A stretch of 64,000 nucleotides of DNA, from IMG/VR virus record IMGVR_UViG_3300050343_000190, positions 1 to 64,000 of that record; one strand, written 5' to 3'. How positions within the stretch are numbered: the first letter of the stretch is position 1; each line of letters starts with the position of its first letter. This document shows, one piece after another, positions 3,001 through 23,460 of the stretch. Both the position numbers and the translations under genes were made by a program. The notes below the pieces were generated by a model. That model was given only the letters and a program-made list of their open reading frames with translations. It was not told the DNA's origin and did not search any database. The DNA comes from a virus.

Positions 3001-4391
3001 GTCTGTAAAATTATCTTCTATAGAGGAACTGGAGATGTTGATGTTGAATTTGTAGATATTCTTGAGACTGTTTCTCCTGGAGATATCCTCACAATCGGTA
3101 GTGAGGATATTAGCCCCTAAAACAAAAAGATAGATCAGTTAAATCAGTTACTTCTACTGACTCGGTTGATACTTATCTTTATGGTGGTGTTGGAATCAGT
3201 AATGATCCATTTGTTGAGAGACCAGTTAATTGGTGTCGTGCAACCACTGATCTCATTATCGATGGTGAAGAAGTTAGCAAAGCAAGAGATATTTATGAGG
3301 CAGCAATTCTTCCTCTAACTAATATCATTTACGATGTTGGTACTGCAAGTACACAAATTTGGATTGAAGGCGCAAGAACTTTCTTCGATAATGCGAGAGA
3401 AAATTCAGAACTGAATTGGACAACTACCGTTGATATTATCGATCAAGATGAAACAGAAGAATCTATAGCAACTGCTTCAGTTACATCTGGAATTGTTACT
3501 CAAATATCCCTTACCAATGCAGGATCTGGGTATTTTAACATTCCTACAATATCTATCGGAGCGCCAAAAGATGATAGTGGAACTCAAGCAGAAGCTAATA
3601 TCATTATCGCATCTGGTAAAGTAGCAACCATTAATATTTCTGTTGGTGGAACTGGATATGATGATAATAATCCACCACCAGTTTTAATTTCACCACCAAC
3701 TCCAAAATCAGAAACAATATTTAGAGTTGACTTTGCAGGAGACTTTGGTGAAGTTATTGGAGTCGGAACAACAACAATTGGAGCAGGATCTTCTCAAGGT
3801 CTCATCTTTGAGTTTGCTATTCCAGAAAACTCTCCTTTGAAAGATGAAACAATTGTTGGTACTGGAAATACAATTGATTATAGTGGAATTGGAACAGGTG
3901 ACTTCTTTACTATACGAGATTCCACGGTCGGAAATGCGACAACAGTTGGATATGGCGTTACTTCAATTGAAATAGATGGAGTTGACTTGGTTGAAGGAAA
4001 TCAATTTATTGATAGTGTATTCCAAGTTCATGACATTGTTCCAGGAACTCCAATCGTTATATTCAGTGACGATTTTGTTGCAAGTTTAACAAGACTTGGT
4101 TCTTATTCTGTTGGATTAGGAGTTTCTACTACAGTCGCTGATGGTGCAACACTGATTATTGAAAATAACACTCAGGTTGTTACTGTTGTTGAAGATTATT
4201 CACAACTTGGACTTTCTTCATTCCTCTCTAGACAAACATTTGCAAACTTCTCTTGGGGTAGACTAGATAGTATTTCTAGACCATTCCCTGAAGCATATGA
4301 TATTAAGAGAGATAATGGAATTATTGGTATCGAAACATCACCTATTTTGAGAAGAAAGAATCCATTAAAAGCCTCCAATTATCTTTCATAA
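1..4391 (+). CDS. gp7: Baseplate wedge initiator gp7-like giant protein, C-terminal part (5' truncated, split by several indels)
   Basis: Consecutive + strand ORF fragments 25-4391 read as one protein across frames. It ends with FSWGRL...GIETSPILRRKNPLK, typical of cyanophage gp7, and lies directly upstream of gp8. Confidence 0.75.
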
Positions 4392-4416
4392 ATAACTAGA
4401 AAAGTTCTGTATTTAA

Positions 4417-5970
4417 ATGTCCGCAATTATAACTGATCAACTTAGAATTTTGAATACGCAAAATTTTCTAGATCTTGCCGAAGATACGGAAAATAATGCT
4501 TTCTATGCTTTTATAGGACTTCCAAATCCCACAGACGTTGTTACTAACTGGGATACGTCTCCTCCTGCTCCTAAGGATTCTTTTGAGCAAGAGTTTGACT
4601 ACTGGGACACTATGATTGCACTGAAGAAGATATCTTCAGTGGATATTCGTCAAGTAATTAAAAAAATTACTTGGAATTCTGGTACTACTTATGATATGTA
4701 TCGCCATAATATTAGTAGAACAAACTTAGCAAAACCATCAAACGCTACAAGTCTTTATTCATCAAACTTTTATGTGATGAATAGCGACTTTAGAGTTTAT
4801 ATTTGTCTACAAAATGGTTCTGATCCAGAAAATATAGAGGGAAGACCATCTCTTGATGAACCTTTATTTACTGATCTAGAGCCACAGATTCCTGGAGATA
4901 GTGGTGATGGATATGTATGGAAATATTTGTATACTATCAAACCCTCTGATATTGTAAAATTTGATTCTGTAAATTTTATTCCTGTTCCAAAAAATTGGGA
5001 GACTGATTCTACATTTGATTCAATTAGAGATAATGCAGTAACAAGTGGTCAGATTAAAATTGTAAAAATAACAAATAGAGGTGCTGGTCTAGGAACTGGT
5101 GGAGTAACATACACAAATATTCCAATCAGTGGTGATGGGGAAGATGCGGAATGCACTATTGTCGTCAATAACGACTCAAAGGTTGACAGTGTAACTGTGT
5201 CGGATGGTGGAGAAGGATATACTCATGGAAGAGTCGATCTTTCAAATTCATCTATTATTTCGGGAACAACAATTCCTGAATTTGAAGTTATTATTCCACC
5301 ATCAGATGGACATGGCGCTAACATTTATAAAGAAATGGGATCGACTAACATTTTAATGTATACCCGCATTGAAAATGATTCTGATAATCCAGATTTTATT
5401 GTTGGAAACCAAGTTGCTAGAGTGGGAATTGTTCATAATCCAACAAAAGATGGATCTACAGAGTTATTAACTGATGATAAAGTTAGTGCTGTCTATGCAT
5501 TAAAACTTACCGGTATTGGATATAGTTCGGCATCTTTTGTTTTTGATAGTGAGGTAACTCAAGAAGTCGGTTTGGGAAGTACTGCTGTTGGTAGAGTAGT
5601 TTCTTATGATGAAATCACTGGTGTTTTAAAATACTGGCAGGATAAGGCTCAGGTTGGATTTAATACTGATGGATCTCAAAAAGTTCCAGAATATGGATAT
5701 ATACAACATAGATTTACATCTGATACTGATGATGGTGGAACATTAACTATTAACGGAGGATCAGTTGAACTATCAATTGATGCAAACTATAGCGGTATAA
5801 CTACCTCTATAAATAATACTACATATAACCTGGGACAAAATTTTACAAACGGAACTGCTCTTCCAGAAGTAAAAAAATACTCAGGAGACATCATATATGT
5901 CGATAATAGACCCGCGATCACTAGATCAAAGAGTCAAAAAGAAGATATTAAGGTCATTTTGCAATTCTAA
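4417..5970 (+). CDS. gp8: Baseplate wedge subunit gp8
   Basis: Intact 517-aa ORF with MSAIITDQLRI, YVMNSDFRVYICLQNG, DGYVWKYLYTI and C-terminal YVDNRPAITRSKSQKEDIKVILQF. Confidence 0.92.
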   Translation: MSAIITDQLRILNTQNFLDLAEDTENNAFYAFIGLPNPTDVVTNWDTSPPAPKDSFEQEFDYWDTMIALKKISSVDIRQVIKKITWNSGTTYDMYRHNISRTNLAKPSNATSLYSSNFYVMNSDFRVYICLQNGSDPENIEGRPSLDEPLFTDLEPQIPGDSGDGYVWKYLYTIKPSDIVKFDSVNFIPVPKNWETDSTFDSIRDNAVTSGQIKIVKITNRGAGLGTGGVTYTNIPISGDGEDAECTIVVNNDSKVDSVTVSDGGEGYTHGRVDLSNSSIISGTTIPEFEVIIPPSDGHGANIYKEMGSTNILMYTRIENDSDNPDFIVGNQVARVGIVHNPTKDGSTELLTDDKVSAVYALKLTGIGYSSASFVFDSEVTQEVGLGSTAVGRVVSYDEITGVLKYWQDKAQVGFNTDGSQKVPEYGYIQHRFTSDTDDGGTLTINGGSVELSIDANYSGITTSINNTTYNLGQNFTNGTALPEVKKYSGDIIYVDNRPAITRSKSQKEDIKVILQF

Positions 5971-5976
5971 GAAATC

Positions 5977-8900
5977 ATGCCCCAGGAACTAAATCTTAAC
6001 GTTTCTCCTTATTATGACGATTTTGATCGCGATAATGATTATTATCGCGTTCTGTTTAAACCAGGGTATCCTGTTCAGGCAAGAGAACTTACGACTATGC
6101 AGTCTATGCTGCAAGGTCAGTTAGAGAAATTTAGTGATCATTTCTTTAAAGAAGGGAAAGAGCTATAACTGGTGGAGAAATTCAATATTATGAAAAATAT
6201 CCATGTGTTATGGTTGATGATTCCTTCAATGGAAAGTCAATCTTAGAATATGCTGCGGATTTATTAGACGAAGTTATTGTTGGCGAAAGTTCGGGAATTA
6301 GAGCAAGAGTCGATTCATATTTACCGGGATCTAGTTCTGAAAGGGGATTTGATACTTATTATATTACATATCTAAGTTCAGATTCAGGATCTTCTGAGTT
6401 TACTGGTTTTATTCCAGGAGAAAACCTATTAACAGAAGATGGAATTCAGACTACTAATAACTTAGCGGATGAATATGATTCTGATGATCCAGATGCAGCA
6501 ATTCAAGAAAATTTAGAAAACTTAATTGTATTTGGAGAGAATGCTCCATTTGCAAGATGTGTTGAAGAAAGTCCAAATGAAGTTGGATCTGCAGTTCATA
6601 TTAATGAAGGTGTTTACTATATTAGAGGACACTTTGTAGAGTCTGAGGAAAAAACCTTACTACTTGATCAGTATGATGATAAACCATCATATAGAGTAGG
6701 TTTAATTATTACAGAAGAGATTGCAACACATTTAGATGATGATGCTCTTCTTGATAATGCACAAGGATTTTCTAACTTTACAGCACCAGGTGCAGATAGA
6801 TTACGAATTGAAATTGATCTAGTAAAGATTGACCTTGATGAAGACGACGATGTAGAGAATTTTGTTGAATTAATGGTCGTTCAAAACGGTCAGATTGTCA
6901 ACAATAATAGAAGCAGACAACAAACAGATAATGAAAAATACATTGCAGAAAGAGTTGATGATGTTGCTGGAGACTTCTATGTAGAGCAACCAGAGGTAGA
7001 GATTTTAGAAGCTTCTAAATGATAAAGAAGGTAATGATGGGTTATATGAACCTGGAGAACTTACTTTACAGGGATCAGAACCTACAGATGATATGGGAAT
7101 CTATAAGATTTCCCCATTTAAAAAGCCTATGTTAATGGGTATCAAATTGAAATTAATACACCAACATATCTTGAATTTGATAAACCAAGAGAAACTAAAG
7201 AGTTTGAAGATCAGCAGTTAGCATATAACTCTGGACCAACATTAGCAATAAACAGAGTATTTGGATATCCAACTTTAGGAATTCAAACAAGTTTTTATAT
7301 CACTCTTAGAGATGAAAGAGTTGGTGGATCTCAAGCAACAGCTGCCGGTAAAGAAATTGGTGTTGCTAGAGTTTATGATTATGAATTAGAAGACGGAACA
7401 TATGAAAGAGAAAATTTAGACTTAAACACTTGGGATCTTACATTATATGATGTTAGACCCTATGTTGAATTTGAACTGAATGAGCCAGTAAAATTAACAA
7501 CTCCTATTCATATTAAAGGAAAAGCAACTGGAGCAACTGGACACCTCAGATTTGATGTTAATAATTCTGGTATTGCTACCGCTTATGATGTAAGAGGTAG
7601 ATTCAACGTAGGTGAAAAGTTAATCTTTAATGGTGTAGAAGAAAATACAAGAGTCGTAAAGGATGCAACAGAATATGGAATTAATAAAGTAAGATCTATT
7701 CATGCAGTAAATGCAAATGGAACTTTCTTTAGTGCAGATACTATACTTGAAGATAGCTTCTGAGGATATTCCAGAACCAGGTTTAAATGTAAGTATAACT
7801 GGAGCATCTAGTGGTGTTTCTACGGTAAGTGTTGCAAACTTCAATCTAGATAAAGTATTTGATGTTGGTGATCTTGTATCATATACAAATTCTGGAAACC
7901 CAGAAATTGTAACCTATAATAAAGTTTCTGCTGTAGCTATATCTAAAACAAACATGAGACTGGAGGCGATTACTTCAGTAACAGGAATCTGTGCTGGTGC
8001 TCTCCCAACTTCTGCAGTACAGACTACAGATTTCCAAAAAATTGAAACAGAAATTGAAACTTCTGACGATAATACTCTTTATACAGAGTTTCCAAAAGAT
8101 TTTGTTGCGAAAGTAAATCTTGAAGATTCTACTATTGTCGTTAGAAAAACATTTGATATCAATATTACTGATGGTGCAACAAATGCTATACAATCAGGAA
8201 CTGATTTTACTTTCCTTCCTTTCACAGCAGGAAGATATGTCCTAACAAGAAATGATGGAACTATTGAAGAACTGACTGATGATAAAATGACCTTCAATGG
8301 GTCATCTACACAATTAACCATAAAAGGACTTGGATCTAATACTGCTGGTGTTCTTGTAGCAACTTGCAACAAATCTAATAACACATCTAAAGTAAAAATT
8401 AGAAATAGAATTGGATCTCTTATTATTGATAAATCAAGAGTTCGTCAATCTGGTGTTGGTGGAACCACATTAAACGATGGACTGACATATGGAAATTATC
8501 CATATGGTACTAGAGTACAGGATGAAGAGATTGCTTTGATGAGACCCGATGTTATCGAGGTCTTAGGAATTTTTGAATCTGATAATACTGCAGAACCAGA
8601 TGTTAAGAGACTAGAATTTAGCACCTTCTCTGGCCCTACTCAGTCTACCGATGATTTAATTATTGGTGAAAGATTTGAAGGAGCAACTAGTGAAGCTATC
8701 GGTATTGTAATTGAAAAAATAAATGATACTACTATAGGATTCATACCAGCAAATGATGATGCATTTGATGAACCTGGTGAGAAAATTACATTTAAAGAGT
8801 CTGGAGTAACTGCAAGTTTTGTAAAAGAAACTGGATCAGATTTAAACATTACAAATAAATTTGATTTAGCAGATGGATTTGAAGACACAATATATGATTA

Positions 8901-11900
8901 TGCTAGACTTGTAAGAAATAAAGATGCTAAAGAACCTAAGAGAAAATTAAAAATTATATACGAGTTCTGCACATATGATGCTGCAGACACAGGAGATATC
9001 ACAACGGTAGATTCCTACTCTAATTTTGACTATAAGGATATTCCAGAAACTGGAGACCTTAGACATAGTGATATTATTGATATTAGACCAAGAGTTGATT
9101 TTTATAATGTAACAGAAAATTCTAGATCACCATTTGAATTTTTTGGCAGATCTTTTGATGGTGATGGAAACTCTGCTGATTTTATTCTTGCATCAGACGA
9201 AACTATCACACTTGATTACTCAATCTACTTAGCTAGAGTTGATAAAATTTTCTTAGATGAAGCAGGACAGTTTCACAATGTAGAAGGTCCTCCATCAGAA
9301 AATCCAGCACCTCCTGGAGCAAAGGATGATTCTATTGAAGTTGCTCAAATTATTCATCCACCATTCCTTGAAGATGTAGAAGACGCCAGTATTGAATTAG
9401 CGGACCATAAACGCTATACAATGGATGATATTGGAGATCTAGAAGATCGTATTAAGCAACTTGAGTACTATACATCTTTAAACCTTCTTGAGCAAAGTAC
9501 TGCTAATATGAAGGTGACTGATGGTAATGGTCTTAATAGGTTTAAGTCTGGATTCTTTGTTGATGATTTCTCTGATGCAGAAAATCAACTAAAGGTAACA
9601 ATTCTTAAGAACTCTGTAGATACTGAAGAGGGTGAATTAAGGGCTGCTCCATATACTACTCAAATTGACTTAGAGTTAGGAACATTCAGCGCACTAGGTA
9701 TTGGAACTGACGTTATTGATTCTGTTACTCTTGATCCAGAATTTGATACCAATATTATTGGTGAAAATATCAAAATGACTGGTAGAGTGATTACTCTCGA
9801 TTATGATGAGCAAATTGAGATTCATCAACCATATGCAACTCAAAACGTTCCAGTTAATACTTTTGCTGATATATTTTATGAAGGTGAATTAGAACTTCAA
9901 CCAGATTCTGACCTTTGGGTGCGCCAGAACTTGGGTGGAAGAAGAGTAAAAGATTCAAGAGGTAAATTCTGGTTCACTAGACGGCAATGGAGAAAAATGA
10001 GATGGAATCCTAACTTCGGTTGGGGTGGTGTTATTTGGAAAGATTGGAGACATCATTGGAAAGGTAATCTTCCTAAGGGAGGGCGTCGTCGTGGTGGAGA
10101 ATATAGTGGAACAACTGCTAACCGTAGGAGGAGAAGGAGAAGAAGAAGAATTAGAGCAGCTGGAGGAGTCTTTAGACGGAAAAAGAGATTAAAGATTAAT
10201 AGAAGAAGAAAGCATCGGTTTAAGATTAAGAGAGGTGGTGCTAGAAGAAAGGGATGGGGTAAGAGAACTATAAGACGTAGATTCTGGGCAAGAAGAGTAC
10301 GCCAAGGAAGACGCTTTGTATCCGTAGCCGTCCGTAAGTGGATGAGAATGCGGAACATTCAATTCAAAGCGAAGAAGATGAAACCCAACACAAGGGTTTA
10401 CGCTTTCTTTGATGGTGTTCCAGTAATGAAAACCATTACTCCTAAGCTTATCGAAGTTAAGATGATCAAGGGAACGTTCCAGGTTGGTGAACGTGTAACT
10501 AGTGCAAGAAGGAGAAGATTCCGTAGAAGAGGATCTATTGCAGTTAAAGTAAGAAGGAGAAGAATCAGAGTTAGATCCGTTAGAGGATGGCGTTGGGCAA
10601 TGAGATTCTCTGGACGAGTTTGTCCAATTAATCATAAAGAAGGTCCAGTTAATACTCCATTAAAAGTATATGGTCAGAACCCATATACAAAGACGGCGAT
10701 GCCTACAAGTTATGCATCCAATTCTACGATTCTGAATATTGATACTTTCATCATGTCCCTCAAACAAAGAGGAAGATATTGGGGATTTATTAACCGTAAG
10801 ATGCGTCTAAAAGGACGTAAGAGTAAAAGCCGTTTGTAGAGTTGTTAATAAACGACTTATCACAGACGGTCAGGGCACTGTTGCAGGTTCATTCTTCCTT
10901 CCAGCAGCAGATGGTGTGAGAAAGAGAAAATTTGGTTATGCATTTAGTGCTGGTAAAAAAACATTTAGATTAGTTGACTCCAAAACTAACTCTGATGATA
11001 AGGCAGAACTCACCACAATGGCTGAGGATGAATTTACATGTACCGGTGGTGGTCTTAAGACAAGATATCACCTTCGGAGATTGAAAGTCAGAAGAGGACG
11101 TAGATGTACTCGCAGACCAAATGCAGAGGTCGGAAGAAGAAGAGTACTTAGGAAGTGTAGAGGTGGTCGAGCACGTCCAGTAACTCCCGATCCAGGAGAC
11201 GAAGAAGAATCAGCACCAATCAGTCCCACTCCACCAGGAGGGACGAAAGCCACCGAGACACGTTGACCCACCTAAAGGTCCTAAAGTGCCGAAGGATCCA
11301 CGTCCATGTCGGCGTAAAGGAAGGGGTAAGAAAAGGTGTAAACCAGGAGGCAAGACGCCACCACCCAAGAAGAATAGACCTAAAGTCAAAACTGCTAAGG
11401 TTAAATACGTCTTTGATAAGAAAGGAAAAGCACTTCCTATTTGGTATGTTCCATATACCATTAAAAAGGGTAAAAATAAGGGAAAAACTAGATACCTTAA
11501 CTTTAACCAAATTAGAAGACTAGGTGGTAAAAAGGATGCTAAGAGAGCATTCAGGGAGTTTGGATACCCTCTTCCACCTAAGAATTACCCAGGTAGAGGT
11601 AAACCAGCAAGACCAACTGGAGGTAAAAAGAAGACAACTACCATTGCGATTAAACAAAATCGTAAAGGTGTGATGAAGGTTATTGATACCTCCAAGAAGG
11701 CAAGGAAACTCAAGAGAAAGGGTAAGAAGTCTAACGTCAGGGATGTTATTAAACCAGGCGATAAGGATTATGGCTATTACAACAAGGGTAAACCCCAACT
11801 CTGGAAGTATGGTGCAACACTTCTTGCAACACAAAACAAGAAAGCAACTAAAAAAGTTACTAAGAGAGGTAAGAAGAAGTTTGAGAAACGAGGATTCCCT

Positions 11901-12224
11901 GTTAATAAATTACCACTTAAGAATGGTAGTATAAAGAGATTCCAGCCACGCAAACCAAGACCACGGAGAAGGTCTCGTCCAAGACCTGCACCAAGACCAA
12001 CGCCAAGAGCAAATAGGAGAAGAAGATTAGGTGGAGGTTATCCACGGAGACCTAGACCTAGACCAAGACCAAGACCTCCAGCACGTCCACCTAGACCACC
12101 AGGTAGAGCAGCAAGAAGAGGAGGAGGAAGAAGAAGAGGAAGAAGAGGAAGAAGATCCGACCTCTTACTGAAGACAAACATTATGATCATCCAAAACGCA
12201 CTAAATAGAGTGTTTAGAGTCTGA
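5977..12224 (+). CDS. VrlC/DUF4815-like virion structural protein, N-terminal gene (~2080 aa reconstructed): acidic N-half, Arg/Lys-rich C-half, ending in the start of an S74 chaperone motif
   Basis: Motifs MPQELNLNVSPYYDDF..YYRVLFKPGYPVQARELT, APGADRL, KRYTMDDIGDLEDRIKQLEYYTSLNLLE, RFKSGFFVDDFS and KPNTRVYAFFDG. Fragments 5977, 6210, 7711, 10916 and 11286 join by single indels. Confidence 0.75.
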
Positions 12225-12232
12225 AATATATT

Positions 12233-12488
12233 ATGATTTCTCTTTTGAATAAAGTATGTAATCTTAATGGAACACTTTATAAGTGGAATGATAAAATGAA
12301 AAAACATCATGAAAGAGAGGGTTATGAGTATGGTCTCATAGCCCAGGAAGTTCAAAAAGAGTTTCCCGAAATGGTTTACGAAGAAGATGGGTATCTATCT
12401 GTTGATTATATTCAAATGATACCCGTCTTAGTAGAAGCCCATTAAAGAACTTAAAGGTGAACTTAATACATTAAAAGCAAATAAATAA
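12233..12488 (+). CDS. Stand-alone C-terminal part of a peptidase S74 intramolecular chaperone domain
   Basis: LLNKVCNLNGTLYKW...YGLIAQEVQKEFPEMV...YLSVDYIQMIPVLVEA. Removing one extra C near 12440 gives IKELKGELNTLKANK*. It matches the intact S74 at 38252-38527. Confidence 0.8.
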
Positions 12489-12525
12489 AAGTAAATTATT
12501 CACCAAAAAGCTATTGAGCAGATAA

Positions 12526-15040
12526 ATGTCCGATAAACTAATTGACCCGTTAGCGCAAACATTCTATGTAGATAATCCTAAAGGGATTTTTGCAACGTCT
12601 GTTGACGTTTATTTTTATGAAGGAGATTCTGCTTTACCCGTTTCTATAGAACTGAGACCTACGGTAAATGGAAATCCATCTGCAAAAGACATTTATCCAT
12701 TTTCTCAAACTACATTAGAACCAGAAGATGTTGTTGTAAGTCCTGATGCAGAAGCCCCAACAAATTTTAAATTTAAATCACCAGTATTTCTAAAAGGAGA
12801 AACTTTTCATTCATTAGTTGTTATTGCAAATAGCAAAAAATACTCAGTATGGGTTGCTAAGATGGGTGAGATAGATGTTACTAAAGCGAATGACGATGAT
12901 TCTAAATCAGTTTTCGTTTCAGCAAACCCAAATTCTGGAGTATTCTTTAGATCTCAGAATGGTGCAACATGGACACCATCTGAAAGAGAAGATATGAAGT
13001 TTACTCTTTATAGAGCTGACTTCAAAGAAAATTCAGGAAATGTAAACTTCTATAATCCAGAATTATCCGTAGGAAACGATCAAGTTTCTATTTTGGATAA
13101 TGATGCATTTGAAATGGAATCTAGACAAGTAAGATTAGTTTTAAGTGGTGGATTAAATGAAGTTGGATTTACTACTGGTGTTACTGTAACACAAGAAAAT
13201 TCTGATGGTAGAGGAAATTATATCGGGAATGCTGGCGCTGTTTCATCTGTATCAGTTTTTAATGCTGGTATTGGTCTCACACCATCGATTGGTGGACTTA
13301 CATATTTTGATGTTCCGTTATCAAAAATAACAGGAGAAGGGAAAAACGCTACCTGTAATTTAACTGTCCAAAATGGAGTCGCTGTTGGTGCAACCATAGT
13401 TAATGGAGGATCTGGATATCAGGTTGGAGATTTGGTAACATCTAACTCGATTGGAAGTGGATTAGGAAGAAATTTAAGATTATCTATCGGAGAACTTGGC
13501 GATATAAACGAAATTATTGTTGATGATATTCAAGGTAGGTTTACAACTGGTTCAGGAAGTACAGTTACATATGAAAACTCTAGTGGAGAGAGCTACTGTT
13601 GGATTAAATGCTGGATCAGGTGGACTAACACTCACCGACAGTACAGTTATTCATGATGGTCTTCATATCAAAGTGAATCATCCTAATCATGGAATGTATG
13701 CACTAGAAAATGTCGTTACTATTGATGATGTTGATCCAGACAATCCAAGTGTAGATACAACAGCAGATGTTGAGGAAGACTCAACCTTACCAATTCCTAT
13801 TGATGATTTACTCATTGATAGTGAAACTGGATTAAGTATTTTTGCTACGTTTGAAAACGTAGGTGTATCTTCGACAAATCCAGGATATATTCAAATTGAA
13901 GAAGAAATTATTGGATACACAGGAATTGATGGACTTAATCTAATTGGAATTACAAGAGAAGTTGATAATACCGTAGGAACTTCATATGAAAAAGGTGTAG
14001 ATATTGTTAAGTACGAACTTAATGGTATTTCTCTAAGAAGAATTAATAAAACTCATGAATTGCAAGATGCAACAGTATCTAATCCAATTGATTTGGACTA
14101 TTACACTATAAGAATCGACCCTCAAGAAGCTGGAATTGATAGATCTAGTAGTCCTTTTGGATATCCTGATTTATTTTTTGAAGAAACTAAATCTACTGGT
14201 GGTGATGATATTACTGCTACTCAGAATATTCAATTTGAAATTATCGACCCAGAAATTTCAGCAACAGAAGTCAACGGTACTGAAGTAGAATTAAATCTAA
14301 GAACTGTTTCCGGAAGAAGTATTGGTGGTAATCAAGAATCCTTTATCGATCAAGGATTTGAAAAAATTTCTACAGAAGAAGAAACATACCTATCTTCTCC
14401 TAGACTAATTTGTTCCCGTATTAATGAAACTGAACTTCTTGATGGAATTGACGGAATTGAAGGAAATAAATCTCTTAATATATCCGTCAATCTAACAACC
14501 ACTAGTCCAACATTATCTCCTATGATCGATTTGGATCGATGTGCTGTTATTTTAATCGGTAATAGAATGAATAAACCCATTACCGATTATGCTAATGATG
14601 AGCGTACTGCAGATTTGGAGAATGATCCTCATGCTTTTGTTTATGCTACGAGACCCATAACTTTAGAAAATGCAGCAACATCTCTTCAAATTTATGTTAG
14701 TGCATATGTAAATACTAAAAGTGATTTGAGAGAGTCTTTCTATGCTATTGATGACGATGGTAAAGAAGAAATGATTTATTATCCATTCCCAGGATTTGAT
14801 AATATTGATAATCAGGGAAATGTTGAAGATCTTTCTAAGAGTAATGGAACTCCAGACGAGAAACTATCAAAAACTGATAGTGTTGGATTTGAATCTGATG
14901 AATTAGAATTCCAAGAACTGAAATTTAGTATTAATAAACTTCCTTCCTTTAGAGCTTTCGGTATAAAACTATGTGCATCTACAGAAGATACAACATATCC
15001 CGTTAGATTAAAAGATTTAAGAGTAATCGCACTTGCTTAA
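12526..15040 (+). CDS. VrlC/DUF4815-like structural protein, C-terminal gene (one frameshift near 13590)
   Basis: Starts with DPLAQTF, then FFRSQNGATWTPSEREDMKFTLYRADF and NHGMY, and ends LKDLRVIALA. These motifs normally belong to the C-terminal half of cyanophage VrlC-like proteins. Confidence 0.75.
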
Positions 15041-15042
15041 TT

Positions 15043-15321
15043 ATGAATGACGAATTTGATCAGATTATTGAAATAGAAGATGATGTAGAGGAAGAAAGAG
15101 GTCTTGCTCTTGTAAAAGATTTTGAAAATCTATTGAAAGATGAAGATACTGGGGCAGTAATTAATACGGATGATGATGAATATGAAACCTACTTAGAACT
15201 AAGAGATATAAAATGGCGTGAAGAAAATGAAAAAAATCAACTAAAATTCGATATTGATTTTTTAAAAACCGCAGTCATAGAATTACAACAAAAAGTAATG
15301 GAGTTGCAAAATGAATCCTGA
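15043..15321 (+). CDS. Small acidic/coiled-coil hypothetical protein
   Basis: 92-aa ORF with L.KDEDTGAVINTD..EY..Y and a C-terminal heptad, translationally coupled to its neighbours. Confidence 0.7.
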   Translation: MNDEFDQIIEIEDDVEEERGLALVKDFENLLKDEDTGAVINTDDDEYETYLELRDIKWREENEKNQLKFDIDFLKTAVIELQQKVMELQNES

Positions 15322-15496
15322 TCAAATAGAACTTAAAAAATTATCTAAGACCTTTGAATATGAAAAACTTTCTAGAGATATAGATAGTATAGATGATATT
15401 AAAATTCTTCGAGATGTAACTAAAAGTTACGTTAAGTTGTACTTAAAACAACAAGAAACACTTTCGGTACTACCGTCCATAGACATTTCAAAATAA
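15311..15496 (+). CDS. Small two-helix protein, possibly NblA-like
   Basis: 61-aa ORF ELKKLSKTFEYEKLSRDIDSIDDIKILRDVTKSYVKLYLKQQE overlapping both neighbours. The ORF is likely real; the NblA resemblance is tentative. Confidence 0.6.
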   Translation: MNPDQIELKKLSKTFEYEKLSRDIDSIDDIKILRDVTKSYVKLYLKQQETLSVLPSIDISK

Positions 15497-16321
15497 TGGC
15501 TAAACCATCATCCAGACAAACCCTAATAATAAGCTACTGTAAGAGGCAGCTAGGTGCTCCTGTATTAGAAATTAACGTTGCAGATGAGCAAATAGATGAT
15601 CTTGTGGATGATGCGCTCCAGTTCTTCCAGGAACGCCACTTTGACGGAGTTGGAAAAACATACTTAAAATATAAACTTACTCAAACAGATATTGATAGAG
15701 GAAAAGGAACATCAGGAATAACTACCACCACAGTCAGTGATGGTGGTATTGATTATGACTATGAAGAGGATTCAAGATATCTACCTCTCCCCGATGGAGT
15801 AATTGGTGTAGAAGGAATTCTTCATTTTACAGGATCTAATAATATCTCTAGTGGGATGTTTAACTTTAAATATCAATTATTCCTAAATGATATTCATTAT
15901 CTAGGATCTACTGAGTTATTGACTTATCAAATGACTCAGACATTTTTGTCTGATATTGATCATATGCTCACTACCCAAAAGAAGATTAGATTTAATCAAA
16001 GAAAGGGTAGATTGTACATTGATATGGATTGGAACGAAGCTATCTATTGCAGGTGAATACTTAGTATTAGACACTTATTCAATTGCAGATCCAGCAACTT
16101 ATTCAAAAGTATATAATGACTCATTTTTAAAAAGATACCTTACATCCACGATAAAACGTCAGTGGGGAATGAATCTCATTAAATTTCAGGGAGTAAAACT
16201 TCCTGGTGGTATAGAACTAAATGGTAGACAATTATTTGATGATGCTCAAAAAGAAATTGATGCCATATTAGATAAAATGCCTACTTATTATGAGATGCCT
16301 CCTCTAGACATGATAGGGTGA
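15496..16321 (+). CDS. gp13: Neck protein gp13 (frameshift near 16045)
   Basis: YCKRQLGAPVLEINVADEQIDDLVDDALQFFQERHFDG; KRQWGMNLIKFQGVKLPGGIELNG; PPLDMIG end. Confidence 0.93.
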
Positions 16322-21027: not shown

Positions 21028-23460
21028 ATGTCCCAGCTATTCGTTGATACTATAAGAAATAGAGATGGTAATGGTGCCCCAGTTTTTGATAAGGGTGTCG
21101 TTATTTCAGGTATAATTACTGCATCGGGATCTCTTGCTGGCGATTCTGTTTCGATTGGAGTAACAGAGGTTGTTAGTTCAGGGTTTGAATTAAAAAATAT
21201 CATCGACTTAGATGCAACCACAACTGCAACAATAGAAGCTGCTATTGTTCTTGCACCAAATGATTTTGCAAGTCTAAATGTAAGTGGTATCTCTACTTTT
21301 GGATCTAATATTGATTTAAACGGAAACATTGATATATTAGGCCATACAGAAACTAATACATTAAATGCTACTGGAATTTTAACAGCAGCATTATTATCAA
21401 CAGGAACGGAAGGATCCGATATTAGGATATCTTCAAACACAATTAGTGGTCCAGCAACAATTACAATTGATCCTGCAGGTATTGGGACAAACACAGGAAC
21501 AGTTGTAATCAATGGCGATCTTCAAGTAGATGGAGATACAACAACCGTAAACTCAACTACTTTAACTGTAGACGATAAAAATATTATTCTTGCTAGTGGA
21601 TCCCTCACCGACGCATCCTCTGATGGTGGTGGTATTACACTAGAATCTGGAGAAGGAAATAAAACAATTAATTGGGTTGACTCTACAGATTCTTGGACAT
21701 TCTCCGAGAACATTGATCTTGCTGCTAGTAAGACTTTTAAAATTAGTGGAACAGATGTTCTTTCATCAACTACTGTAGGTTCAGTGTCTGTAACTAACTC
21801 TTCTCTTCAAAATGTAGGAACACTTGCAGGAGTTCAAGTTAGTGGTGCTGCTACAATCGGTGGAGATTTAGATGTAGATGGTCATACCAATCTTGATAAT
21901 GTAAATGTTTCTGGTGCTATCACTGCCACTACATTTACCGGTAATCTAGCTGGATCGATTAATACTGCGGAACAAACTAGTATAACCAAACTTGGTACAC
22001 TAACGGAACTTGATGTAACTGGACAAACAGATCTTAGAAATGTAAGTATTGTTGGAGTAACAACTTTCACAGGTAACATTGACGCTAATGCTGACTTAGA
22101 TGTCGATGGTCACACAAATCTCGATAACGTAAGTATTGCTGGTGTTGTAACAGCAACAACATTTGTTGGAAATGGTGACTTTGTAGAACTAGATGTAGAT
22201 GGTCATACCAATCTTGATAATGTGAGTATTGCTGGTGTAACTACAACTTCAGGTTTACTTGATATTAATGCTGGTGGACAAGCAAATACTTTCAAGGTAG
22301 AAGATCTAACAGATAACCGTGTTATTATTGCTGGAACTGGTGGTGAACTTGAGGACGATGCCAATCTAACCTTCAATGGATCTACCCTTGCAGTTGGTGT
22401 TAATTTAGATATAACTGGAGACCTAGATGTTGATGGTCATACCAACTTAGATAATGTAACTGTTGGTGGGGCTATTACAGCAACCACATTCACTGGTAGT
22501 TTGTCTGGAGAAGTTGATACAGCAGCACAACCAAACATTACTTCGGTTGGTACTCTAACAGGACTTACGATATCTGGTAACATTACTGCTCAAGCAGATT
22601 TGGATGTAGATGGTCATACCAATCTTGATAATGTGAGTATTGCTGGTGTTGTAACAGCAACAACATTTATTGGAAATGGTGACTTTGTAGAACTAGATGT
22701 AGATGGGCATACAAACTTAGATAACGTAAGTATTGCTGGAGTAACAACTTTTGCAGGTAACATTGACGCCGATGCTGACTTAGATGTTGATGGTCATACC
22801 AATCTTGATAATGTAAGTATTGCTGGAGTAACAACTTTTGCTTCTAGAGTTGAACTTGATGGAGATCTTGATGTTGACGGAACTACTGAGTTAGATGTTC
22901 TTAATGTTGCTGAAACTGCTACATTCTCCGCGAATATCGATGCTAACAAGTCTGTAGATGTTGCAGGAAATCTCAATACGCTTACTCTTAGAGCAGGACT
23001 TTCAACATTCACTGGATTTGTTTATGATGAATTAGATCCTGATACTAGTTTAAGAAATGCAGGAGACTTTAATAATATTACTGGTGTAGCATTTACTAGT
23101 GGTTCAACAGATACATTATATTGGGACTTTGCTACGGCACCTTCCGTAATTGGTGGCGAGGCTAGTAACGGAATAGAGAATATTGAACTCGCTGGTCTTC
23201 CAACAAATAGCAAATATATGGTGAGAGCAACTTTAATCACATTTACTGATGCTGCCAATGACTGGGACACTGGTAACGTTGTGCTTAAAGTTAATGGTCA
23301 GACACCAACAAACTATCTTTGGAGAAATGGTGCTCAACCAGTTGGTACGACAACAGGTTCATCAAATGCTTTTGATATTGTAGAATTCAAGATTGTTCAT
23401 GATACGAACGATGAGTTCAGTGTATTCGCTGAGTGGTCTGCTTATCACGCCTCTACTTGA
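21028..23460 (+). CDS. Tail fibre-like protein with internal tandem repeats
   Basis: 810-aa ORF with a GDLQVDGDTTTVNSTTLTVDDKNI shaft motif and seven DGHTNLDNV repeats. Confidence 0.75.
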   Translation: MSQLFVDTIRNRDGNGAPVFDKGVVISGIITASGSLAGDSVSIGVTEVVSSGFELKNIIDLDATTTATIEAAIVLAPNDFASLNVSGISTFGSNIDLNGNIDILGHTETNTLNATGILTAALLSTGTEGSDIRISSNTISGPATITIDPAGIGTNTGTVVINGDLQVDGDTTTVNSTTLTVDDKNIILASGSLTDASSDGGGITLESGEGNKTINWVDSTDSWTFSENIDLAASKTFKISGTDVLSSTTVGSVSVTNSSLQNVGTLAGVQVSGAATIGGDLDVDGHTNLDNVNVSGAITATTFTGNLAGSINTAEQTSITKLGTLTELDVTGQTDLRNVSIVGVTTFTGNIDANADLDVDGHTNLDNVSIAGVVTATTFVGNGDFVELDVDGHTNLDNVSIAGVTTTSGLLDINAGGQANTFKVEDLTDNRVIIAGTGGELEDDANLTFNGSTLAVGVNLDITGDLDVDGHTNLDNVTVGGAITATTFTGSLSGEVDTAAQPNITSVGTLTGLTISGNITAQADLDVDGHTNLDNVSIAGVVTATTFIGNGDFVELDVDGHTNLDNVSIAGVTTFAGNIDADADLDVDGHTNLDNVSIAGVTTFASRVELDGDLDVDGTTELDVLNVAETATFSANIDANKSVDVAGNLNTLTLRAGLSTFTGFVYDELDPDTSLRNAGDFNNITGVAFTSGSTDTLYWDFATAPSVIGGEASNGIENIELAGLPTNSKYMVRATLITFTDAANDWDTGNVVLKVNGQTPTNYLWRNGAQPVGTTTGSSNAFDIVEFKIVHDTNDEFSVFAEWSAYHAST
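21862..22900 (+). repeat. Coding repeat array (LDVDGHTNLDNVSIAG units)
   Basis: Seven exact DGHTNLDNV peptides plus degenerate copies. Blocks starting near 22141 and 22645 are almost identical at DNA level. Confidence 0.9.

What the first reader, a model, noticed from the sequence alone, without database searches (positions are those of the whole stretch)
9940..12155. Supercharged Arg/Lys-rich half in the VrlC/DUF4815-like baseplate protein
SEEN: after an Asp/Glu-rich N-half, about 740 aa switch abruptly to a protamine-like composition (NRRRRRRRRRIR, FRRKKRLKINRRRKHRFKIKRGG, KKARKLKRKGKK), with Trp/Arg segments such as WFTRRQWRKMRW and RGWRWAMR. Family core motifs persist inside it (RNIQFKAKKMKPNTRVYAFFDG, PKLIEVKMIKGTFQVGE, NHKEGP, STILNIDTF, KRLITD...GSFFLP), so this is the real frame. 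The downstream C-terminal gene is acidic again. INFERENCE: the folded domain has been cationised and extended under selection. It could be a polycationic virion appendage that binds anionic LPS or sulfated EPS, permeabilises the outer membrane like cationic peptides, or binds nucleic acid. The acidic flanks could mask the charge during assembly.
Basis: partly seen in the sequence, partly recalled or inferred. Interest (0 to 1): 0.8.

Follow-up and report, generated by a model that had tools for sequence, protein, structure and literature searches.

The report
Supercharged cationic arm of phage baseplate
A widespread uncultured marine T4-like phage has turned the outer 742 residues of its giant baseplate arm protein into a polycation (net charge about +208), while the neighbouring arm parts became unusually acidic; no such charge-split baseplate has been described, and its function is untested.

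Summary
In the window the Arg/Lys-rich stretch (9928-12155) runs over three frames only because this contig has two extra bases (10825, 11246). Two 99.7%-identical contigs and contigs from four independent sequencing runs lack them, so in nature it is one ORF: VrlC-N, 2076 aa. Residues 1313-2054 carry net +208 and the N-half carries -131.

Part A (to about 11050) is the family's own segment just after Pfam DUF4815. The beta-sandwich is kept (AF2 pLDDT >90; Z 12 to the phage 812 arm scaffold protein). Its net charge is +55 to +97, against -28 to +7 in 62 typical loci. Part B (11051-12155) is a clade-specific insert: linker, Lys-rich module and Pro/Arg tail, ending at the Ser-x4-Lys site of a split S74 chaperone.

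The cationic part is under purifying selection (dN/dS 0.17-0.25) and is shared by at least 8 viral contigs. It occurs in many seawater metagenomes and in metatranscriptome contigs.

New here: the arm partners are specifically acidified (VrlC N-part z -8, VrlC-C z -6, gp8 z -4), while the neck proteins are not.

Function is inferred only. My best guess is an electrostatic adhesion or latch module at the baseplate periphery. Earlier scan notes on other genomes describe VrlC split by S74 with other tip modules, but none describes this cationic form.

The parts
4417..5970 (+). gp8-like baseplate wedge / arm-segment protein (517 aa), net charge -29. It is more acidic than in 39 typical loci (z -3.9).
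   Evidence: 61% identical to cyanomyovirus gp8. Charges. Acidification is concentrated at residues 1-30 and 241-270.
5977..9927 (+). Acidic N-part of VrlC-N (P0013 residues 1-1312, net -131), including Pfam DUF4815, which ends at residue 1312. In the window it is broken by contig-specific insertions at 6161, 7014, 7123 and 7753.
   Evidence: tblastn to S-SM2 VrlC. Pfam 178 bits and phrog_358. Insertions listed. N-terminus matches phage 812 arm scaffold protein, E 1e-14. Charge z -8.0 against 39 typical loci.
9928..10326 (+). A1: the most cationic family segment (133 aa, net +51, 40 R, 14 K, 9 W), containing the R9 run. It corresponds to the variable Thr/Glu-rich linker of typical VrlC.
   Evidence: Alignment. 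Composition. AF2 pLDDT <50. The same segment is partly cationised independently in P0078, P0109, P0133 and P0159.
10327..11050 (+). A2: the retained double beta-sandwich of the family (241 aa, net +43), with an Arg-rich loop insert (RRRRFRRRGS..RGWRW). The extra base at 10825 is private to this contig.
   Evidence: AF2 pLDDT mostly >90. VIA Z 12.0, rmsd 1.9, 102 aligned, 31% identity to 9euf_0 residues 589-773. Base absent from L005 and 4 runs.
11051..11363 (+). Arg/Pro-rich linker (104 aa, net +26). The extra base at 11246 is private to this contig. In relatives L006-L010 a Hint-like domain sits at this position.
11364..11963 (+). Region B: clade-specific Lys-rich module (200 aa, net +59, 50 K). 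It is conserved in the clade and, in a less basic form, in sister lineage P0016.
   Evidence: Alignment A3. No Pfam family. AF2 confident only for a ~45-aa beta/helix core. No fold match, best Z 2.7.
11964..12155 (+). Pro/Arg tail (64 aa, net +29, 29 R, 16 P) ending ...GGGRRRGRRGRR. It derives from the PRPxP repeats seen in P0016.
12156..12224 (+). First piece of the S74 intramolecular chaperone (SDLLLKTNIMIIQNALNRVFRV, then stop), carrying the Ser-x4-Lys motif. The stop is conserved in all clade members.
12233..12485 (+). Small ORF (83 aa in L005) encoding the rest of the S74 domain. In the window it is truncated by an extra base at 12438.
   Evidence: Pfam PF13884, 39.8 bits against cut-off 22. 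PHROG tail-fibre C-termini. Insertion.
12526..15040 (+). VrlC-C (835 aa in L005, net -68): the C-terminal third of the family protein as a separate gene. It is unusually acidic (z -6.2). In the window it is broken by a 4-nt insertion at 13586.
   Evidence: phrog_358 positions 1421-2055. Matches 9euf_0 residues 789-964, E 8.5e-20. Charges. Acidification lies in residues 361-760.

Best explanation
WHAT IT IS (shown). The region is the distal 742 residues of VrlC-N. VrlC-N is the DUF4815-type baseplate arm scaffold protein of an uncultured, widespread marine T4-like phage lineage whose closest cultured relatives are cyanomyoviruses. It has two components.
(1) The family's own linker and double beta-sandwich, which follow the DUF4815 core. 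The fold and core motifs are kept, but about 120 polar surface-type positions are now Arg or Lys, and about 8-10 Trp have been added.
(2) An inserted tip module made of a linker, a Lys-rich domain and a Pro/Arg tail. It splits VrlC into two genes and ends at the Ser-Lys site of an S74 chaperone.
The charge is selected, not drift. The other arm components (VrlC N-part, VrlC-C, gp8) have become about twice as acidic as in relatives, so the whole VrlC is nearly neutral.

HOW IT WORKS (inferred). By homology with the phage 812 arm scaffold, the module sits at the periphery of the baseplate arm. In the free virion the polycation is neutralised by, and probably docked on, the acidified arm partners. 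At the cell it acts as a multivalent, low-specificity electrostatic adhesin for polyanionic envelope polymers such as acidic or sulfated polysaccharide or LPS. The charge density is high enough to work at seawater ionic strength. If the S74 site cleaves, the mature chain ends in RRRGRRGRR. The confidence given is for this functional reading; the descriptive part I hold at about 0.95.
For: Real and natural:
- One ORF in L005-L010.
- The window's two frame breaks are absent from 4 runs of 4 studies.
- At least 14 DNA runs in at least 9 studies hold 94-96% of its words, and metatranscriptome contigs cover it.

Family and fold:
-.
- Phage 812 gp117 is the arm scaffold. Its N-terminus lies in the wedge and its arm carries gp8-like dimers and docks receptor-binding proteins (PMC13433997).

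Cationisation is lineage-specific:
-.
- Substitutions fall at polar positions, and 84 of 113 conserved columns are kept.

Selection:
- dN/dS 0.17-0.25.
- K/R swaps among relatives.

Recurrence:
- Weaker, independent cationisation of the same segment in P0109, P0133, P0024, P0078 and P0159.

Compensation:
- N-part z -8.0, VrlC-C z -6.2, gp8 z -3.9, against gp13, gp14 and gp15 at z -1.1, -0.2 and +0.3.
- The neutral-A sister P0016 has a typical N-part.
- Outside the clade, mid-segment charge against C-part charge gives rho -0.44, p 0.026. P0109 and P0133 have the most acidic C-parts.

Tip position:
- The tail abuts the S74 Ser.
- In known S74 proteins cleavage exposes the upstream residues as the distal end (my knowledge of endoNF and T5 pb1).
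Against: - No binding, virion-proteome or structural data exist for this protein.
- The host is unknown. No psbA or hli was found on these 23-45% complete fragments.
- From my own knowledge, marine Synechococcus LPS is reported to be poor in phosphate and Kdo, which would weaken an LPS-phosphate target.
- Seawater ionic strength screens electrostatics.
- Charge compensation by neighbours is what a purely internal structural contact would also predict.
- dN/dS is not raised as in typical receptor-binding tips.
- The S74 domain is split by a conserved stop, so cleavage and trimerisation are uncertain.
- The most cationic 133 aa and most of region B are low-confidence in AF2.
- The equivalence of A2 with the 812 'elbow' domain is my inference. 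The paper text I read gives no residue ranges.
Confidence: 0.4

Rival explanations
1. Internal electrostatic glue. The cationic linkers and surfaces are permanent structural contacts with the acidified gp8 dimers, VrlC N-part and VrlC-C. They tighten or re-wire the baseplate arm and have no role in touching the host.
For: - Acidification is specific to the arm partners and absent from the neck proteins.
- There is a negative mid-segment/C-part charge correlation outside the clade.
- In phage 812 the scaffold linkers thread between gp8-like dimers by beta-augmentation (PMC13433997).
- A1 keeps an alternating hydrophobic/basic strand-like pattern (FKIK, LKIN, RRFVSVAV).
- Purifying rather than diversifying selection.
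Against: - The net positive gain (about +220) sits largely in segments that are variable in length and composition across the family (A1), or in an inserted tip ending at an S74 site. These are features of exposed, distal elements.
- gp8 acidity does not scale with cationic charge within the clade: L009 is the least cationic but has the most acidic gp8.
- The baseplate works in hundreds of relatives without such charges.
Confidence: 0.3
2. Membrane-active or penetrating element. The Arg/Trp-rich segments and the Pro/Arg tail act like cationic antimicrobial or cell-penetrating peptides, locally destabilising the outer membrane under the baseplate.
For: - Trp enrichment next to Arg: 12-19 W against 4-8 in typical homologues. 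Examples are WFTRRQWRKMRW and RGWRWAMR.
- A PRP-repeat tail.
- Earlier scan notes on other genomes describe VrlC halves ending in hydrophobic, membrane-like tips before an S74 domain. This is a lead only.
Against: - The support is compositional resemblance only, with no homology to any AMP family.
- The PRPxP repeats are ancestral and nearly uncharged in P0016.
- Several of the Trp belong to the conserved family motif W..W...W.G.
Confidence: 0.12
3. Nucleic-acid or other cytoplasmic polyanion binding. The protamine- or histone-like segment binds DNA, RNA or polyphosphate during assembly or infection.
For: Protamine-like composition, a Lys-rich region B and a GRGKPARP motif loosely like an AT-hook.
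Against: - The position in a baseplate arm protein, between gp8 and the neck genes, is far from the DNA path.
- No nucleic-acid-binding family was detected.
- No fold match for region B.
- Partner acidification argues that the charge is kept from free polyanions.
Confidence: 0.08
4. Artefact or decay. The basic reading is a wrong frame of a purine-rich stretch, or the gene is a frameshifted pseudogene or an assembly error.
For: The window itself has frame breaks at 10825 and 11246 and many others along the gene. An alternative frame of the R-run reads Glu-rich.
Against: - The alternative frames are full of stops.
- tblastn to S-SM2 VrlC selects this frame.
- Relatives have uninterrupted ORFs of 2076-2235 aa.
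- dN/dS 0.17-0.25 in this frame.
- Four independent runs lack the extra bases.
- The window differs from L005 by 12 insertions, no deletions and only 5 substitutions, which is a sequencing-error pattern.
Confidence: 0.02

Closest known systems
Arm scaffold protein gp117 of Staphylococcus phage 812 (DUF4815; PDB 9EUF and related entries; EMBO J 2026, PMC13433997)
   Same: - The N-terminus matches (E 1e-14) and the post-split domain matches (E 8.5e-20).
- The profile of the cationic segment hits residues 559-712.
- The A2 beta-sandwich superposes on residues 589-773: Z 12.0, rmsd 1.9 A, 31% identity.
- A gp8-like partner gene lies adjacent.
   Different: - 812 gp117 has 1152 aa, is one gene and comes from a Gram-positive host.
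- It has no inserted tip module and no S74 domain.
- I did not compute the charge of its aligned segment.
VrlC of cultured cyanomyoviruses, e.g. Synechococcus phage S-SM2 (ADO97441, 2519 aa); phrog_358
   Same: Collinear over the whole length and in the same locus, between gp8 and the neck genes. 31-41% identity.
   Different: - S-SM2 VrlC is a single gene.
- Its aligned segment has net -26 (pI 4.4) against +93 here.
- Its flanks and gp8 are about half as acidic.
Sister metagenomic lineage P0016 (2151 aa)
   Same: The same split architecture: region B, PRPxP repeats and an S74 start (SDINLKSNI..NALNRLF).
   Different: - Family segment A is neutral (-6).
- The N-part has typical acidity (-44).
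- The tail is PRPxP with few charges.
- It carries a Hint-like insert beginning with Cys.
S74 intramolecular chaperone domains of endosialidase and tail fibres (Pfam PF13884; endoNF, T5 pb1)
   Same: The Ser-x4-Lys motif directly follows the tail. The rest of the domain scores 39.8 bits.
   Different: The domain is divided between two ORFs by a conserved stop. The upstream sequence is a Pro/Arg tail, not a recognisable triple beta-helix. Cleavage is untested.
Engineered supercharged proteins and polycation-tagged endolysins (my knowledge, not tested here)
   Same: Surface polar residues replaced wholesale by Arg/Lys on a retained fold. Polycationic tails are used to reach anionic envelopes.
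   Different: Those are man-made. This one is natural, conserved and embedded in a virion machine with co-acidified partners.

Membership tests
VrlC / DUF4815 baseplate arm scaffold (PF16075, phrog_358) | Pfam DUF4815 match above the curated cut-off | tested here: met
   178.2 bits against cut-off 30, ending at residue 1312, just before the cationic part.
VrlC / DUF4815 baseplate arm scaffold (PF16075, phrog_358) | Collinearity with full-length family members through the cationic segment | tested here: met
   S-SM2 residues 588-1644 align to window 7792-11047. phrog_358 positions 1-1380 and 1421-2055 are covered by the two genes. 84 of 113 conserved columns are kept.
VrlC / DUF4815 baseplate arm scaffold (PF16075, phrog_358) | Locus between gp8 and the neck genes gp13-15 | tested here: met
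VrlC / DUF4815 baseplate arm scaffold (PF16075, phrog_358) | Fold shared with a solved member | tested here: met
   9euf_0: Z 12.0, rmsd 1.9, 102 aligned. This covers the A2 sandwich only. A1 and region B were not modelled confidently.
VrlC / DUF4815 baseplate arm scaffold (PF16075, phrog_358) | Presence in the virion baseplate | not testable with these tools
   Needs proteomics or cryo-EM of an isolate.
Peptidase_S74 intramolecular chaperone (PF13884) | Pfam match above the cut-off | tested here: met
   The small ORF scores 39.8 bits against cut-off 22. PHROG tail-fibre C-termini match.
Peptidase_S74 intramolecular chaperone (PF13884) | Ser-x4-Lys catalytic motif at the junction | tested here: met
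   SDLLLK directly follows ...GRRGRR and is invariant in alignment A3.
Peptidase_S74 intramolecular chaperone (PF13884) | Domain contiguous with the protein it folds and is cleaved from | tested here: not met
   A stop follows NALNRVFRV in all clade members. The rest is a separate ORF 8 nt downstream in another frame.
Peptidase_S74 intramolecular chaperone (PF13884) | Autocleavage and trimerisation | not testable with these tools
   Needs expression and mass spectrometry.
Cationic or proline-rich antimicrobial peptides, cell-penetrating peptides | Sequence homology to a described family | tested here: inconclusive
   No Pfam family at E <= 0.1 for the tail or region B. The resemblance is compositional only. 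Short peptide families are poorly covered by these libraries.
Protamine/histone-like nucleic-acid-binding proteins | Recognisable DNA/RNA-binding domain or fold | tested here: inconclusive
   No Pfam hit. The region B model has pLDDT 53 and a best fold match of Z 2.7.

The most novel reading that the evidence does not exclude
An electrostatic latch for adsorption in seawater. The polycationic arm module is parked on co-evolved acidic surfaces of gp8, VrlC-N and VrlC-C in the free virion. Contact with a denser polyanion on the host envelope out-competes these contacts. That both glues the baseplate to the cell and releases the arm rearrangement that triggers contraction. This would be a receptor-independent, charge-competition trigger not described for any phage.
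Probability: 0.2. Interest if true: 0.85.

Novelty: new variant of a known kind. Interest (0 to 1): 0.65.

Why it matters
Baseplate arm scaffolds of T4-like marine phages are giant, conserved and functionally almost unstudied. Here one abundant lineage has rebuilt about a third of the protein into one of the most highly charged natural protein segments I know of: +208 over 742 aa, with pI about 12 for the family segment. It kept the fold and re-charged its partners in the opposite direction.

If the module binds the host envelope, it would show a charge-based adsorption strategy that works at high ionic strength. It would also give a natural template for polycationic targeting domains. If the module is internal, it is a clear natural case of large-scale compensatory charge co-evolution within a molecular machine.

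Either reading is directly testable with recombinant domains and multimer modelling. Weaker versions in independent lineages suggest a tunable property of the family.

Tried and rejected
- **The protein-atlas search** could not read the window's own region B. The stored homologue P0014 only returned Hint-domain leads.
- **The search for related loci with the 48-sequence alignment A1** failed for lack of a conserved stretch. It was redone with A2.
- **Foldseek of the region A model** gave no hit at E <= 0.001. 9euf_0 was top at E 0.037, and VIA was needed.
- **Region B.** The AF2 model is poor (pLDDT 53, 8-sequence alignment). The wide fold search gave nothing above Z 2.7, and Pfam gave nothing. 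Its fold and origin remain unknown.
- **Host.** psbA and hli were not found on the window's record or on three relatives' records. All are 23-45% complete fragments, so this says nothing firm. Two relatives' records were not held.
- **Literature.** No paper was found on cationic VrlC or arginine-rich baseplate proteins. '9EUF' was not found as a term. The 812 paper text gives no residue ranges for the elbow domain.
- **Wrong-frame reading, rejected.** The Glu-rich alternative frame has four stops in about 75 codons.
- **Mutational bias or hypermutation, rejected.** The GC and purine shift is what Arg/Lys/Gly/Pro codons give, and dN/dS is low.
- **Horizontal transfer of part A, rejected.** It is collinear and homologous with the family, and AGA is still 65% of Arg codons.
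- **Proteome-wide acid shift as the cause of acidic flanks, rejected.** gp13, gp14 and gp15 are unchanged.
- **Correlation within typical loci.** Among typical loci alone, mid-segment charge does not correlate negatively with flank charge. Compensation is seen only where cationisation is strong.
Full report
**1. What is in the sequence.**
ORF listing and three-frame translation show the Arg/Lys-rich text at 9940-12155. It is spread over three frames: frame 1 up to the stop at 10839, frame 2 for 10829-11266, and frame 3 for 11286-12224. GC rises from about 0.33 to 0.41-0.51 with strong purine skew. tblastn with VrlC of Synechococcus phage S-SM2 (fetched) shows the whole 5977-15037 stretch is collinear with that 2519-aa protein. 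The alignment jumps frame at about 6170, 7770, 10826 and 13595, and 11047-12475 has no counterpart. Residue by residue, the cationic text aligns with acidic or Thr-rich S-SM2 sequence, while RNIQF..KP.T..YAFFDG, PKL.E..M..GTFQVGE, NH.EG and STILN.DTF are kept.

**2. The frame breaks are not natural.**
The window is part of an 86-kb IMG/VR viral contig.

- A metagenomic protein, P0001, reads straight through both breaks.
- Nine related viral contigs were found. In L005-L010 the gene is one ORF of 2076-2235 aa, followed by an 835-aa ORF.
- L005 and L004 are 99.7% identical to the window. They differ by 12 insertion events in the window (1-6 nt, no deletions) and only 5 substitutions. These include single extra bases at 10825 and 11246.
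- Contigs from three DNA runs and one metatranscriptome run, from four studies, all lack exactly these two bases and otherwise differ at no more than one position.

I therefore used the L005 translation (P0013) as the true protein.

**3. Anatomy.**

| Residues (P0013) | Segment | Net charge | Note |
|---|---|---|---|
| 1-1312 | Acidic N-part | -131 | Pfam DUF4815 ends at residue 1312 |
| 1313-1445 | A1 | +51 | 40 R, 9 W |
| 1446-1686 | A2 | +43 | |
| 1687-1790 | Linker | +26 | |
| 1791-1990 | Lys-rich region B | +59 | |
| 1991-2054 | Pro/Arg tail | +29 | |
| 2055-2076 | SDLLLKTNIMIIQNALNRVFRV, then stop | +2 | First piece of an S74 chaperone |

- Together, residues 1313-2054 are 742 aa with net +208, at window 9928-12155.
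- An 83-aa ORF begins 8 nt downstream. It encodes the rest of the S74 domain (PF13884, 39.8 bits).
- Next comes VrlC-C (835 aa, net -68), which covers phrog_358 positions 1421-2055.
- VrlC is therefore split in this clade by an inserted module of about 390 aa plus S74.

**4. Is the charge unusual for the family?**
Yes.

- In a 13-sequence alignment, segment A has net +55 to +97 (pI 10.9-12.0) in the clade. It has -2 to -27 (pI 4.4-5.7) in typical homologues. Trp count is 12-19 against 4-8.
- An exhaustive search of 1.84 billion representatives gave 716 hits. Among about 145 of the best 150, the aligned segment lies between -0.065 and +0.03 charges per residue. The exceptions are fragments of this clade and a few partly cationised lineages: P0109 +54, P0133 +26, P0024 +28, P0078 +20, P0159 +24, P0100 +16.
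- In 62 typical IMG/VR loci the segment averages -0.023 +/- 0.021 per residue. The clade is about 11 sd away.
- P0016 is a sister lineage with the same region B, PRPxP repeats and S74 start, but a neutral segment A. The insertion therefore came first and the supercharging of the family segment came later.

**5. Fold retained, surface changed, selection acting.**

- AF2 on a 48-sequence alignment models residues 186-426 of the 441-aa query as beta domains with pLDDT mostly >90. The R-run segment and one Arg-rich loop are low-confidence.
- VIA places the sandwich on residues 589-773 of chain 9euf_0: Z 12.0, rmsd 1.9 A, 102 aligned, 31% identity. Sequence profiles agree.
- 9EUF is the phage 812 baseplate. 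Its DUF4815 protein, gp117, is the arm scaffold. Its N-terminus sits in the wedge, its linkers thread through gp8-like arm-segment dimers, and its loops dock the receptor-binding proteins. A double beta-sandwich 'elbow' sits at the arm periphery (PMC13433997).
- That A2 equals this elbow domain is my inference.
- There are 119 columns where at least 4 of 6 clade members have K or R. In 97 of them typical homologues have a residue: mostly T, S, D, E, N or Q, with 24% already K/R. 84 of 113 family-conserved columns are unchanged.
- dN/dS against four relatives is 0.17-0.25 in A and B, against 0.11-0.21 in the N-half.
- AGA remains the main Arg codon (65%), though AAG and CGN are more frequent than elsewhere.

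**6. New observation: the partners are acidified.**

- The first 1300 residues of VrlC-N carry -99 to -139 in the clade, against -21 to -66 in 39 typical loci (z -8.0).
- VrlC-C carries -55 to -70, against -9 to -39 (z -6.2).
- gp8 carries -27 to -33, against -3 to -21 (z -3.9).
- The neck proteins gp13, gp14 and gp15 are within the typical range (z -1.1, -0.2, +0.3).
- The least cationic member, L009, also has the least acidic N- and C-parts, but not the least acidic gp8.
- The sister P0016 has a typical N-part (-44).
- The extra acidity is localised: VrlC-N residues 151-400 and 1051-1150, VrlC-C residues 361-760, and gp8 residues 1-30 and 241-270.
- Outside the clade, across 25 representatives, mid-segment charge correlates negatively with C-part charge (rho -0.44, p 0.026). 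The two most cationic independent lineages, P0109 and P0133, have the most acidic C-parts.
- The whole of VrlC (N + C) is near neutral here (-30 to +11), against about -60 to -106 in the two typical homologues summed.

**7. Occurrence.**
At least eight viral contigs from different metagenomes carry the cationic form. Near-identical sequence is present in at least 14 seawater or viral-metagenome runs from at least 9 studies (2017-2025) and in marine metatranscriptome contigs. RNA libraries can contain DNA, so transcription is likely but not proven. gp8 is about 61% identical to that of cultured cyanomyoviruses, and no closer cultured relative exists. The host is not established.

**8. Interpretation.**

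*Shown:* a natural, selected, lineage-specific supercharging of the distal part of a baseplate arm scaffold, accompanied by acidification of the arm partners.

*Inferred:* peripheral location, by homology with phage 812, and a poly-Arg mature C-terminus if the S74 site cleaves.

My preferred mechanism (confidence 0.4) is an electrostatic adhesion module. It would be neutralised or docked by acidic partners in the free virion and would bind polyanionic envelope polymers at the cell. Several points favour this:

- The charge sits in variable, exposed-type segments and in an inserted tip next to an S74 site.
- The same linker has been cationised repeatedly in other lineages.
- Arg is paired with Trp.
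- A very high charge density is needed for electrostatics to matter in seawater.

The main rival (0.3) is a purely internal electrostatic contact with gp8 and VrlC-C. The compensation data fit that equally well. Membrane-active (0.12) and nucleic-acid-binding (0.08) readings rest on composition only. Artefact is excluded for the natural gene.

**9. Comparison and novelty.**
The protein is a member of the VrlC/DUF4815 arm scaffold family, and all testable criteria were met. The S74 element meets the motif and Pfam criteria but fails contiguity. I found no description of a polycationic VrlC or baseplate arm, or of charge-split co-evolution in a baseplate. Earlier notes of this scan on other genomes describe VrlC split by S74 with hydrophobic tip modules. 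Those notes are unchecked, but they suggest the split point is a general site for envelope-interacting tips. I class this as a new variant of a known kind and set interest at 0.65.

Noticed in passing
window 4001-16000 (positions 6161, 7014, 7123, 7753, 7940, 10825, 11246, 12438, 12505, 13586, 14733, 15524): This contig differs from the 99.7%-identical contigs L005 and L004 by 12 insertion events (1-6 nt), no deletions and only 5 substitutions. This is an insertion-type sequencing or assembly error pattern. It breaks VrlC, the small S74 ORF and VrlC-C, so other apparent frameshifts in this window should be treated with suspicion.
   Followed up: yes
L010:8880-9296, L006:8880-9296, L009:9033-9449; also P0014 and P0016: A ~120-aa Hint/intein-like domain sits in the linker between the cationic family segment and region B in most clade members and in sister P0016. 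It scores PT-HINT 25.6 bits against cut-off 27.7, runs from LILMHDG to LLSHN, and its first residue is Ala in the clade and Cys in P0016, with HN followed by Lys. It is absent from the window, L005, L004, L003 and P0001. It may be a presence/absence polymorphism of an autoprocessing element.
   Followed up: partly
window 12156-12485: The S74 chaperone is divided. The Ser-x4-Lys piece ends the big ORF at a stop that is conserved in all clade members. The remainder is a separate 83-aa ORF 8 nt downstream in another frame, repeating the (I/L)xxALN(R/K)V helix. In P0016 the domain appears to run on in frame. This is the subject of another note (e1-6104858).
   Followed up: partly
window 21028-23460: An 810-aa fibre-like virion protein (phrog_30158, phrog_6002, tail-fibre hits) has net charge -82 (-0.10 per residue). 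It is the most acidic large protein in the window outside VrlC and a candidate partner of the polycation.
   Followed up: partly
P0003, P0004, P0009, P0100 (metagenomic VrlC homologues): Other VrlC lineages also end or are split at the same point after the TVQENI..RN motif, with different tails. P0003 and P0004 have PT/Ser-rich tails, P0100 has a Lys-rich tail and P0009 has RRRRNSWARRQRRKRRGRGGKKGGS. The site looks like a hot spot for tip modules.
   Followed up: no
window 9928-12155 (L005:6579-8804): Codon use shifts within the cationic part. Lys AAG is 51% there against 20-25% elsewhere, AGA falls from 81% to 65% of Arg codons, and GC3 is 0.29 against 0.17. This may reflect avoidance of long A-runs, or a different origin for the inserted half.
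   Followed up: no
window 12103-12158: Short-read (Logan) contigs of all four runs break at the GA-rich repeat that encodes RRGGGRRRGRRGRR. Assemblies of this phage will tend to fragment exactly at the end of the cationic gene.
   Followed up: no
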